A stretch of DNA of 64,000 nt, from contig OX597821.1 of the NCBI GenBank assembly GCA_951406725.2, positions 89,900,001-89,964,000 on the forward strand, in the 5' to 3' direction. A model generated the notes under the pieces. That model saw only the letters and a program-made list of their open reading frames with translations, did not search any database and was not told the DNA's origin. The DNA is from Octopus vulgaris (Eukaryota). Positions 15,160 to 41,931 of the stretch are shown piece by piece. The translations under genes and the position numbers were made by a program. Numbering within the stretch: the first letter of the stretch is position 1; each line of letters opens with the position of its first letter.

Positions 15160-15868
15160 GAGCAAAACGGCCCCCGTCCAATGGACAGTGCTGAGTTGTC
15201 AAACATTTAAACCAAATTTTCCCAAAACGACTTGTCCGACCGTCCCATGGGCCTCCCCTTTGAGAAACATTGATTTAACCTAAATTTGAGACAAGAGCAA
15301 AAGAAGAAATAAAGATAGACTTTTTTCTATTCCAAAGAAAAACGATTTTATACACAAATATACAACCGAAGAGTTTAAAGTACCCGTAATGATAAGGCTG
15401 TTGACTGGGAGAACACAAACATGGTTTAAACAGTTCATTAAAAAATAATTAAGCATGCCTTTATTTCAAAAAAGTTAAGGCAAAAAAAACAAAAACTTCT
15501 TGAGAAAATAAATAGTCTTTCCTTCCTTCATGCCAAGTTTGAAGAAAATATCTCTTTTACATCTTACTTTTTTGGTCTCTTGAATATACTGCATTTTGCG
15601 GCATTATTTCAAGCCAGCCGGCTCTTTTTGCGCAAACTGCACGTGCATTTTTCTCGCGTACGCGTAGTATCGATCGCAACAGCTGATGTACTTGCGCGTA
15701 CAAATGCACGTTCCCACGGCTTTATCGATCGCATTTTCACCTAGAATCGATACCGTCGGTATCTACATATCAAATTTGAGCGCAATCGGATGGAGGATGT
15801 CCGAGATACTAGAAGACACACAGACAGACAGACAGACAGACAGAACGGATTTTATATTATATATATAT
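15159..15868 (-). mobile_element. Probable non-autonomous Helitron (second family)
   Basis: Degenerate CTAG end and hairpin cccgtccaatggacag at left; caaatttgagcgcaatcgg, (GACA)n and ttttatattatata at right, the same layout as 6625-7021. Confidence 0.55.
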
Positions 15869-15906
15869 AAATAAATGAAAAAATGGAGTTGAACGACGAT
15901 TTAACA

Positions 15907-16011
15907 AAATTCCTTTATTCTCGACATATGTTTCGAAGACTGCATACTCCTAATTTCGAAGGAATAAGGGGTGCATTATACCGCCTTCTCATCAGGAAAG
16001 ACAAGGAACTT
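15907..16011 (-). ncRNA. Type I hammerhead ribozyme (left-arm copy)
   Basis: Reverse complement of 16231-16335 with the core intact. Confidence 0.8.
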
Positions 16012-16230
16012 ATGTCAGCATCATGATGAACAAAAACTTTTAGATGACTGCCCACACGGAGTCCATAGCGATTATCGCTATGGACATTTAAACCAAATTT
16101 TCTCAAAACAACTTGTCCGACCGTCCCATAGGCCTCCCCTTTGAGAAACACTGATTTAACCTATGATTTATCGCTATGGACTCCGTGTGGGCAGTCATCT
16201 AAAAGTTTTTGTTCTTCATGATGCTGACAT

Positions 16231-16335
16231 AAGTTCCTTGTCTTTCCTGATGAGAAGGCGGTATAATGCACCTCTTATTCCTTCGAAATTAGGAATATGC
16301 AGTCTTCGAAACATATGTCGAGAATAAAGGAATTT
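16231..16335 (+). ncRNA. Type I hammerhead ribozyme
   Basis: CUGAUGA (16247-16253); stem II gaaggc/gucuuc; GAAAC-auau-GUC with cleavage predicted after 16319; stem I aaguuccuu-guc-uuuc pairs with gaga-aua-aaggaauuu around a 3x3 internal loop. Confidence 0.82.
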
Positions 16336-16545
16336 TGTTAAATCGTCGTTCAACTCCATTCTTTCATTTATTTGTATTAAAAAACAACACAAATTTCCAC
16401 ACGAAAGCACGTGATCTCTGCCCTTGGTATGTAGCTTCAACCGTGTTTTTCTGACGTGAATTTGCTACCTGGCTATCGGTTGACCGAATTATCCATACTA
16501 GGATAATTCATTCAACTACTTAAATATATATATATATATATATAT

Positions 16546-24051: not shown

Positions 24052-24383
24052 ATATTGTTATATTTTGGGATGGTCTTTGTTTTTCTTTTTTTGTCAAATA
24101 AACACTCGCACTATATATTCGTTCTTCACTCGTTCATTACTGTTCTTATTTTAGCTGAATCTTATTGTCCGGAAATCTTTTATCCAGAATGGACTAAACG
24201 GAGTAGGAGGATACACGATGACGGAAAGTGTTGCTGAAGAGGTCACAGACGCGTGACGAAAGATTTCCGGACAATGGACATAAGTTAAAATAAGAACAGT
24301 AATAAACCAGTGAAGAACGAATATATTGTGCTCGTGTTTATTTGGCAAAAAAAAAAAAAGAAACTGACCTTGCCGAAATATAG

Positions 24384-39958: not shown

Positions 39959-41931
39959 TCATCATCATCATCATTGTTCGACCGTGGTCGAGACAATTGA
40001 ATTTACCATGCTACGCCAGACTTCACGGTCCATCATGGCATTACGGAGGTCCTGTAGCTGGATGCCTGTATCCCTGGAGATTACATCAGGGTAGGAAAGT
40101 GTGCGCCCTCTGGTATCGCGAGCAGATGGCTTCCAGTGGAGAAGAGTAGAAATTGCCTCGTTTTCAGCTCTACAACAATGTCCAGCAAACTGTACTCTCT
40201 TACCTTTCACAAGAGATGACACAGGTGGTAGTTTCCCATATATTTGTACTTTGGTTGGATGACGCTTCCACAAGATATTTTGAACTCTCATAAGGAGGCG
40301 AGTGTAGGTTCCATCCAACCACCTCTCAAGCTTCTTTGATAATGTACAGATTTCTGAGCCATATAGTAGAATTGGTTCGACTGTGGCTTTGAAGATTTCA
40401 AGTTTGAAGTCTCTAGTTAGATTTGATGATCAGATCTTATGCATGTCATTACAGGCTGACCAGGTTTTCTAGTTAGAAAATCTTTTCCAGATGATGATAT
40501 GTATGATCCAAGATATTTGTAATCAGAAACCATATTTAAGGGCGCATTGTTGAGAGTATGGATGATGCAATCACTGTTGAACAGGCACTTGTTTATATAT
40601 TCAGTCTTGGCCTCATTGAGGTAAAGACCTACACAATTTGAGGCTTGTTCGAGAGATTGTAAAAGAGAATCACTGATAAGAGCGATGTCGTCAGCAAAGT
40701 CAATGTCTGTCAAGTATTCAGCTGGGTGACTGGAACTTCTAGGTTTTATTTCAAGGCCCTTGTCAGAAATGGTATCAACTGACATAAGTAGCACATAGTC
40801 AACGACAATGATGAAAAGAAATGGGGCGAGTGTGTCTCCCTGCAGTATTCCGGCTTTGATTGAAAAAGATGATGTTTCTCCGTCAGAGGTTAAGATGGTT
40901 GAAGATGTATCTGTGTAGAGGACCTTGATGGCAGAAATGACTTTGTCTGATATCCCATAGAGCTTAAGGATTTCAAACATCTTGTGCCTATCTACAGAGT
41001 CGAACGCTTTAGAAAAGTCCACAAACACCATTGCAAGGTCGTGATTAAATGCTTTTGATTCTTCAATAAGTCTGCATAGGCATAGTATCTAGCTCAGCGT
41101 TGAGCGCCCATGTTTGAATCCATTTTGGTTCTTTCGGAGCAAAGGTTCAACAAAAAGGACAAAACGATTTAGAATCATTTTTTTGTACAATTTTGCAGCA
41201 ATTGACATTAGAGATACACCCCTGTAGTTGGTGACGAGGGATAAATCGCCTTTTTTTGGGTATTGGTAGGATTTGGGATTGGTGCCAAATCTTTGGAGCT
41301 ACAATAGTGGAAAGTGTGTGGTTGCAAAGGTTGAGCAAAAGTGTGTGAAATCTATCATCCTTCCAAATTATAGCTGGGATGTTGTCGGGACCAAATGCTT
41401 TCGAGGCTTTCAGTTGTTTAGGGGCTGCTGTTAGTTCAAATATGTTAAAAGGGGAGGTGTTGATGTCCAGCGTGTCTGATATAGGCACACTTGGAAGAGT
41501 GGGGTTATCAGGGATTTTGGCATTCTTCCCAAGAAGGTTTTTAAAATGAGTAGACCAATTTTCTAAACGCTTCTTAGCGGATCCCCCTTTAATTCTAATT
41601 GATGACCCAGAATTTTTGCCTGATAGGTCTTTGATGGATTTCCAGGTGAGATGGTGTTTTTTACTAATGTGCTCTTTGGATAGTTTGCTAATTTTGCCGT
41701 TGATTAAGTCGACCTCGGCGTTCAAGTAAGCCTCATCAAGATTCTTCTTGGCAGTTATGAGTTGGATCTTCAGTGACTGGGATGGAGAACGGTGGTAAGC
41801 TAGAGATATAGACTTTAGATGGTTTCTGGCTTCGATGACATTTGGGGAATTAGAAGGTTTGCTCTGGCCCCTACTCTTCTTTTTGGGAAGAGTAGCCAAT
41901 GTAACTTCCTCTGTTGATTTGATGAGGCTGC
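39959..41931 (-). mobile_element. 5'-truncated RTE-clade (RTE/RTEX-like) LINE with frameshifted reverse transcriptase
   Basis: KAFGPDNIP, IPKK, QNGF, FVDFSKAFDSV, GILQGDTLAPFLF, FADD, YKYLGS, FAGHC.R and DR..WR motifs; (TGA)n tail starts at the stop codon. Confidence 0.93.
40417..41031 (-). pseudogene. Reverse transcriptase core of the LINE
   Basis: 204-aa ORF with DFSKAFD, QGDTLAP and FADD; flanking parts lie in other frames. Confidence 0.92.

What the first reader, a model, noticed from the sequence alone, without database searches (positions are those of the whole stretch)
16231..16335. Extended hammerhead with long stem II and an internal loop in stem I, present on both strands of one inverted repeat
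Seen: canonical CUGAUGA/GAAA/GUC core, ~50-nt stem II insert, palindromic ACAUAUGU at stem III, and a 13-bp stem I with a 3x3 internal loop. Established: loop-loop contacts between stems I and II speed up natural hammerheads. Inference: this is the best candidate for activity. Transcription in either direction would give an RNA with one ribozyme plus its own antisense arm, so cleavage would compete with formation of a 200-bp dsRNA.
Basis: partly seen in the sequence, partly recalled or inferred. Interest (0 to 1): 0.72.

Follow-up and report, generated by a model that had tools for sequence, protein, structure and literature searches.

The report
Penelope retrotransposon stub with long-armed hammerheads
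The two mirror-image hammerhead-ribozyme motifs are the cut-short ends of an abundant Penelope-type jumping gene with thousands of copies in this genome, likely left by one insertion; each is predicted to be locked up by the opposite arm, so this copy is likely inactive debris, and its one unusual trait, a long side hairpin, is shared by the whole family.

Summary
The motif is real: a type I hammerhead core at 16247-16319 (+), with a twin on the minus strand, in the 208-nt arms of an inverted repeat. The arms are the 3' ends (pLTRs) of a Hydra-like Penelope retroelement. Longer copies link this end to RT and GIY-YIG sequence. Exact patterns find 3,845 long-stem-II cores in the genome, against 0 for the controls. 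The head-to-head layout, one-sided tail and (TA)n ends are published Penelope features, and this scan noted them before on other DNA.

'Best candidate for activity' is not supported:
- Stem III is one pair plus a palindromic loop, the type reported to need a dimer.
- The 3x3 loop occurs in only 4 of 18 variants compared.
- In either direction the antisense arm is transcribed first, and the ribozyme fold then costs about 121 kcal/mol.

Two points are mildly new. The 53-59-nt stem II is family-wide, with compensatory changes in its first 12 pairs. The lineage also lacks the Hydra CxCX5C linker yet still ends in (TA)n. No cleavage or expression data were obtained.

The parts
15853..15864 (.). left (TA)n target remnant
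   Evidence: sequence; arm ends of this family lie at (TA)n in 38 of 47 cases
15865..16072 (-). left arm: 5'-truncated 3' end (pLTR) of the element, short end without tail
   Evidence: 96% to the 3' end of the long copy in L031
15907..16011 (-). twin hammerhead (C3 at 15995, C17 at 15923)
   Evidence: fold
16061..16085 (.). 25-nt palindrome at the head-to-head junction
   Evidence: self-match; such junction palindromes are described in PMC3846280
16084..16163 (+). 80-nt piece of an unrelated high-copy repeat captured in the spacer
   Evidence: 95% to 15203-15282; that repeat has 1,613 candidate places in the genome, so the source copy is not identified
16168..16377 (+). right arm: 5'-truncated 3' end (pLTR) of the element
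   Evidence: 97% to L031 6310-6519, about 500 nt after the GIY-YIG stop
16231..16335 (+). type I hammerhead: stem I 16231-16246/16320-16335, core 16247-16253 and 16308-16311, predicted cleavage after C16319
16254..16307 (+). 54-nt stem II: conserved 12-pair proximal helix with a wobble zone, variable distal hairpin
16311..16318 (+). self-complementary stem III (ACAUAUGU), predicted dimer interface
   Evidence: self-duplex -7.0 kcal/mol; double hammerhead 11.8 kcal/mol below two monomer folds
16378..16527 (+). tail of about 150 nt = the element's own 5' UTR, on one arm only
   Evidence: 95% to the sequence just before the ORF start in L031
16525..16546 (.). right (TA)n target remnant
   Evidence: sequence

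Best explanation
This is a 5'-truncated, head-to-head pair of 3' ends of a Hydra-like Penelope retroelement, likely from one insertion into a (TA)n repeat, and its hammerheads are passengers that are predicted to be blocked here by the opposite arm. Shown: the arm is the element's 3' end; the family has thousands of copies in several subfamilies; the core and the proximal stem II are conserved; many long copies have a second, same-strand pLTR directly before the 5' UTR and ORF. Inferred: in such pLTR-ORF-pLTR master copies two same-sense hammerheads pair through their palindromic stem III and cut as a dimer, slowly, releasing a unit-length RNA that may be circularised. Inferred: the RT-endonuclease nicks both strands of a (TA)n target and starts copying at two fixed points on the RNA about 150 nt apart (the pLTR end and the tail end); the two short cDNAs are then joined head-to-head, here through a palindrome and a captured 80-nt repeat fragment. 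Read-through of this stub would give a 208-bp hairpin, not a cleaved RNA.
For: Arm = 3' end of the long copy L031, which carries RW, DKT, KDHK, FDI..FYPS, MGS.D, YRDD and GIY-YIG-type motifs in order, broken over several frames. Copy number 2,868 + 977 exact pattern matches, 0 controls. Of 28 places, 19 show two arms, all 19 head-to-head, 18 of 19 with one long and one short end; 38 of 47 ends at (TA)n against 6% background. 15 of 25 ORF-start loci (4 from one array) have a direct pLTR before the 5' UTR. In 18 copies chosen by their ORF start, 1 of 15 core columns has a shared variant against 46 of 118 others, Fisher p = 0.019. Double hammerhead -62.2 against -50.4 kcal/mol for two monomer folds. 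Cassette transcripts penalise the ribozyme fold by 121 kcal/mol. The architecture is published (PMC8557442; PMC3846280); two RT start sites bounding the tail and cutting of both strands were shown in vitro for an anole PLE (PMC11167929).
Against: No cleavage, expression or circular RNA was measured. Pfam support is weak: GIY-YIG at E 0.03-0.07, below cut-off, and no RT family hit, so the assignment rests on motifs, homologues and by-eye comparison with the published alignment. No intact ORF was seen in the long copies read. The loci were top hits to this arm, so they are young copies with at least one full arm. In the anole PLE, hammerhead mutants did not affect insertion in vitro and no reads started at the cut site, so the dimer-cleavage role may be dispensable. 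The 5' ends of direct pLTRs do not cluster at the cleavage site. The unconstrained two-strand MFE (-65.5) is still below the double hammerhead (-62.2).
Confidence: 0.85

Rival explanations
1. The ribozyme is active as a monomer, stabilised by a stem I-stem II tertiary contact, on RNAs that start inside the spacer or the pLTR and so lack the antisense arm.
For: Intact core and GUC triplet; without the antisense arm the constrained fold is only 5-6 kcal/mol above the ensemble and stems I and II are preformed; PLE pLTRs can hold promoters (PMC6765202 passage); U at position 1.6 is nearly invariant and mostly unpaired.
Against: One-pair stem III of the type reported to cleave poorly as a monomer; 3x3 loop in only 4 of 18 variants and no fixed partner loop in stem II; no promoter or start site shown here.
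Confidence: 0.1
2. The cassette is a selected ribozyme/antisense switch or a non-coding retrozyme unit of its own.
For: Arms of equal length, 98% alike; no ORF in the cassette; animal retrozymes derive from PLE pLTRs (bioRxiv 10.64898/2026.07.22.740005, part 1).
Against: Arm lengths and junctions differ at every place examined, and many arms run on into the 3' UTR or ORF; the spacer was seen in no other of the loci compared; no short tandem units as in retrozymes.
Confidence: 0.04
3. A MITE or fold-back DNA transposon whose terminal inverted repeats happen to contain a hammerhead.
For: Long inverted repeat in TA-rich DNA.
Against: The outer ends are unequal (one has the 150-nt tail), the inner ends vary, and the sequence is the 3' end of an RT/GIY-YIG element.
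Confidence: 0.01

Closest known systems
Hydra clade of C-terminal EN+ Penelope-like elements, including Hydra-1_Obim (Craig et al. 2021, PMC8557442: passages, section 11, supplement parts 2, 57, 58)
   Same: DKT motif, KDHK, divergent RT4 (MGS.D), GLYRDD, C-terminal GIY-YIG with CxxC..E and N..CxH and no CCHH, 3' hammerhead, (TA)n targets, inverted 5'-truncated partner copy.
   Different: RWL instead of RWK; no CxCX5C linker (an Asn-rich stretch lies there); about 3.5 kb instead of generally under 3 kb; stem II region 53-59 nt against about 26 nt or less in the 26 Hydra rows of File S2; tail about 150 nt against the 30-40 nt usually described. A different family from Hydra-1_Obim, whose hammerhead has a short stem II.
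PLE hammerheads with palindromic stem III (Cervera and de la Pena 2014, PMC4209133: parts 1-2 of 4) and axolotl HHR_Amex1 (PMC7229834: passages)
   Same: Type I topology, short inner helix I (4-5 bp), larger helix II, G10.1-C11.1, one-pair stem III with palindromic loop, pairs on opposite strands 100-700 bp apart.
   Different: Helix II runs to 12 pairs plus a distal hairpin; the conserved loop 1-loop 2 contact of Amex1 was not recognised here.
Inverted pLTR insertions of Adineta vaga Penelope (PMC3846280: passages) and the anole PAc element (PMC11167929: part 1 of 4, passages)
   Same: Head-to-head inverted pLTRs, tail on one arm only, junction palindromes, Asn-rich inserts between RT and EN; tail bounded by two RT start sites.
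   Different: There the tail runs into the ORF; here it stops about 45 nt before the ATG and is about five times longer.
Metazoan non-LTR retrozymes (PMC7229834; bioRxiv 10.64898/2026.07.22.740005)
   Same: Type I hammerhead related to PLE pLTRs, no ORF at this place.
   Different: Not a short tandem repeat; the sequence is the end of a coding element.

Membership tests
Type I hammerhead ribozyme | Core CUGANGA ... GAAA ... NUH with three helices, stem I open | tested here: met
   core conserved in copies chosen without regard to it
Type I hammerhead ribozyme | Site-specific self-cleavage | not testable with these tools
   no assay; only contigs were available to lay
Type I hammerhead ribozyme | Match to an Rfam hammerhead model | tested here: not met
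   likely an effect of the 54-nt insert (inference), so it lowers only 'described family'
Extended (tertiary-stabilised) hammerhead | Conserved loop 1-loop 2 contact or pseudoknot | tested here: not met
   3x3 loop in 4 of 18 variants, loop bases vary; no 3D test possible
Dimer-type hammerhead | One- or two-pair stem III with self-complementary loop | tested here: met
   ACAUAUGU in 13 and ACAUGUGU (G-U compatible) in 5 of 18 (the pattern fixed the other letters); duplex energies
EN+ Penelope-like element | RT followed by a C-terminal GIY-YIG endonuclease in one reading unit | tested here: met
   motifs in order in L031 and a 713-residue open stretch in L126; Pfam only weak
EN+ Penelope-like element | pLTRs in partial tandem or inverted, optional tail, hammerhead in the pLTR | tested here: met
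Hydra clade | DKG changed to DKT | tested here: met
   SDKT in L031 and L126
Hydra clade | No CCHH in EN; CxxC and CxH beside the conserved E and N | tested here: met
Hydra clade | RWK motif | tested here: inconclusive
   RWL at the same place in all 23 distinct segments printed; close homologues read RWR, RWM, RWE
Hydra clade | CxCX5C linker before the endonuclease | tested here: not met
   absent in 16 of 18 distinct EN segments, all 16 of this lineage (3 of them cut off upstream); present in the other 2, from other families, and in homologues P0001 and P0004. Filed as Hydra-like, not as a canonical member
Hydra clade | Insertion into (TA)n | tested here: met
   38 of 47 arm ends against 6% background
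Hydra clade | Placement in the Hydra branch of an RT tree | not tested
   reference sequences were seen only in the paper's supplement; compared by eye
Non-LTR retrozyme | Short non-coding tandem units, each with a hammerhead | tested here: not met

The most novel reading that the evidence does not exclude
This genome holds a very successful Hydra-derived Penelope lineage that has lost the CxCX5C zinc-finger linker yet still targets (TA)n, which would show that the linker is not needed for microsatellite targeting; its hammerhead carries a selected 53-59-nt stem II arm that works as a protein-binding or folding element rather than a catalytic aid, and its near-strict long-end/short-end rule records twin initiation by a dimeric RT-endonuclease on one RNA.
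Probability: 0.3. Interest if true: 0.5.

Novelty: new variant of a known kind. Interest (0 to 1): 0.2.

Why it matters
This copy matters little: it is one of thousands of truncated Penelope ends. The family is of some use to specialists. Hammerheads with so long a stem II were missed by Rfam here, so counts of such ribozymes may be too low. Several subfamilies give natural compensatory variants for testing what PLE hammerheads do, which is still open. A lineage that targets (TA)n without the CxCX5C linker tests the published idea that this linker guides targeting. Many head-to-head stubs would also be a source of long hairpin RNA for silencing or editing if transcribed (inference, untested).

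Tried and rejected
Rfam: no hammerhead match at gathering score or at E up to 10.

RNA evidence: no RNA holder listed on record. Four runs were laid, all contigs, three only guessed to be RNA; no place where many molecules begin or end was listed, and contigs cannot show one. This is no evidence either way.

Local templating of the 80-nt spacer from 15203-15282: not shown. That sequence is a high-copy repeat whose other copies are 94-96% alike to it, about the same as the spacer.

A conserved alternative pairing between the stem II insert and the strand after the cut site: only 2 of 18 variants beat shuffles at p up to 0.05; rejected.

Long stem II as compensation for linker loss: rejected. 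In L129 a CxCX5C endonuclease is followed by a hammerhead-like motif with an even longer stem II (read by eye). I first took that endonuclease for the H subfamily's and dropped this.

Short-stem-II relatives: only 15 matches, which look like deletion products.

Cut site as a template end: 5' ends of direct pLTRs do not cluster there.

A third, weak hammerhead-like hit at 24234 (stems 3/1/2) failed the strict descriptor.

Protein searches: the EN region among longer proteins found nothing; PDB gave nothing useful; Pfam found no RT family in the element.

Literature: seven searches listed no paper on this family or on a PLE hammerhead with a stem II of about 55 nt. 'Long helix II' in PMC13725137 means 6 bp. 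Two spike-moss PLE-X1 rows in File S2 have loops of about 30-35 nt. Lunse et al. on dimeric PLE hammerheads was not held and may contain such variants. I read only 3 of the 59 parts of the Craig supplement, plus two term searches.

Earlier-scan look-ups by place and by sequence returned nothing.

Full report
Observation. The motif is as described. CUGAUGA starts at 16247, stem II encloses 54 nt, GAAA is at 16308, ACAUAUGU at 16311-16318 and the predicted cut follows C16319. The twin on the minus strand has C3 at 15995. The arms are 15865-16072 and 16170-16377, 98% complementary and 97 nt apart. A strict descriptor finds 2 motifs in the window against a mean of 0.02 in 200 shuffles. Rfam does not recognise it.

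What it belongs to. A search of the own genome with the arm gave 2,012 candidates, of which 40 were scored, with 54 matches at 92-100%. Exact patterns for the long-stem-II core give 2,868 matches with U at position 7 and 977 with A, against 0 for the reversed controls. A pattern for a short stem II gives 15. In locus L031 the same 210 nt lie about 500 nt after the stop of a GIY-YIG-type domain, at the end of a 3.5-kb element whose frames carry RW, SDKT, KDHK, FDI..FYPS, MGS.D and YRDD motifs in order. Window 16378-16527 matches the 5' UTR of that element, so it is the 'tail'. The best homologues are Hydra-type proteins with a CxCX5C linker; two named hits come from Argonauta hians and Octopus bimaculoides, which suggests an octopod host (inference). 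By eye the RT matches the Hydra rows of the published alignment and not Penelope/Poseidon, Nematis or Neptune (PMC8557442 supplement). Pfam support is weak.

Architecture. Among 28 places (30 loci minus two duplicates), 19 show two arms. All 19 are head-to-head and 18 have one end with the tail and one without; the exception is L024, where the second 'long' piece is the 5' UTR of a full-length copy. 38 of 47 arm ends have (TA)3 or more within 30 nt, against 6% of random window positions. These were top hits, so they are young copies. Inverted 5'-truncated copies, a tail at one end, junction palindromes and head-to-head order are all published (PMC8557442 passages; PMC3846280 passages). For an anole element, two RT start sites bounding the tail and cutting of both strands were shown in vitro (PMC11167929). 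The window's junction holds a 25-nt palindrome and 80 nt of another high-copy repeat. Of 25 loci found by the ORF start, 15 (4 from one tandem array) have a same-strand pLTR directly before the 5' UTR, so two same-sense hammerheads can share one master transcript.

Selection on the ribozyme. In 18 of 22 loci chosen by their ORF start (the tandem array counted once, 3 loci dropped) the motif region was near complete. One of 15 core columns has a variant shared by two copies, against 46 of 118 other columns (Fisher p = 0.019); the one case involves a junction copy. The search profile did include the core, but copies with changed cores were retrieved. In an alignment of 18 hand-picked variants (picked by a pattern that fixed the core), the first 12 pairs of stem II are paired in 86.6% of cells and 6 of the 12 change on both sides. 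The distal hairpin shifts register (62% paired). The structure was drawn from these sequences and they are related, so the shuffle control (57 against 33.6 cells) overstates the case. The long arm is therefore a family trait under some pairing constraint, not a feature of this copy. The 26 Hydra hammerhead rows in File S2 have about 26 nt or less there.

Activity. Stem III is one C-G pair under AUAU. This is the form of axolotl HHR_Amex1, which cleaved 6% in an hour as a monomer and much better as a dimer (PMC7229834 passages). PLE hammerheads are reported to be slow even as dimers (PMC4209133; PMC6765202). The loop variant ACAUGUGU keeps self-pairing through G-U. A double hammerhead evaluates at -62.2 kcal/mol against -50.4 for two monomer folds; the free two-strand MFE is -65.5. 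The 3x3 loop at positions 5-7 of stem I is present in 4 of 18 variants; others have smaller or shifted mismatches, so it is unlikely to be a conserved docking site. Alone, the ribozyme fold is 5-6 kcal/mol above the ensemble; in a transcript of the cassette, in either direction, it is about 121 kcal/mol above. Because the arms diverge, the antisense arm is always made first, and equilibrium folds of growing prefixes keep the sense arm paired throughout (168 of 171 bases at 16340). These are thermodynamic models without kinetics or tertiary terms. Only a start site inside the spacer or pLTR would free the motif, and none is shown. The RNA look-ups were uninformative.

Mechanism. Shown: identity, copy number, layout, conservation. 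Inferred: dimeric cleavage in master copies, possible circularisation, two fixed copying starts about 150 nt apart, head-to-head joining, and silencing of the ribozyme in this stub. Against a needed role for cleavage, hammerhead mutants did not impair insertion of the anole element in vitro, and 5' ends here do not cluster at the cut site.

Differences from known Hydra elements. The motif reads RWL, the element is about 3.5 kb, the tail is about 150 nt, and the CxCX5C linker is absent in all 16 EN segments of this lineage among 18 found (3 of the 16 cut off upstream), while two other families in the same genome keep it. All 9 Hydra rows shown in the published figure have it. The paper links this linker to (TA)n targeting, yet this lineage still ends in (TA)n. 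I therefore file it as a Penelope-like element that works like Hydra and most likely derives from it, not as a canonical member.

Verdict. Real motif, ordinary origin. Earlier notes of this scan reached the same reading on other DNA; they are not independent support. Interest 0.2.

Noticed in passing
G000:C20:23330474-23350641 (L089-L091): Head-to-tail array of about six near-full-length copies of a sister subfamily, 3.2-3.5 kb apart, with inverted pieces; the copies printed read CUGGUGA in the core and ACAUGAGU in stem III, so the array's hammerheads look damaged.
   Followed up: partly
L005, L031, L123, L126 (between RT thumb and EN): Asn/Ser-rich insert of over 100 residues in place of the CxCX5C linker, like the N-rich inserts described in Adineta Penelope elements.
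   Followed up: partly
L129:2262-2365: Hammerhead-like motif of another family with a stem II of roughly 85-90 nt (by eye), downstream of an endonuclease that keeps CxCX5C.
   Followed up: no
L108:1471-1608: Distant subfamily with a 59-nt stem II of very different sequence that keeps the second helix, and GUA at the cut site.
   Followed up: partly
window 16480-16515: The tail ends in a predicted hairpin of about 15 pairs just before the long-end start point; conservation not tested.
   Followed up: no
window 15160-15330: Another high-copy repeat (1,613 candidates, scored copies 94-96% alike) begins right after a (TA)n run; 80 nt of this family sit in the cassette spacer.
   Followed up: partly
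window 40417-41088 (-): RVT_1 reverse transcriptase fragment, E 1.6e-13, of an unrelated retroelement; the only Pfam hit among 22 of 36 long open frames scanned.
   Followed up: no
L031:1234-2670 (-): 3' part of a different Penelope-type element with a cysteine-rich linker and GIY-YIG lies next to the Hydra-like copy.
   Followed up: no
window 16262: Both arms share a T where 25 of 27 subfamily copies have C, which fits copying of both arms from one template; it keeps the pair as U-G.
   Followed up: yes
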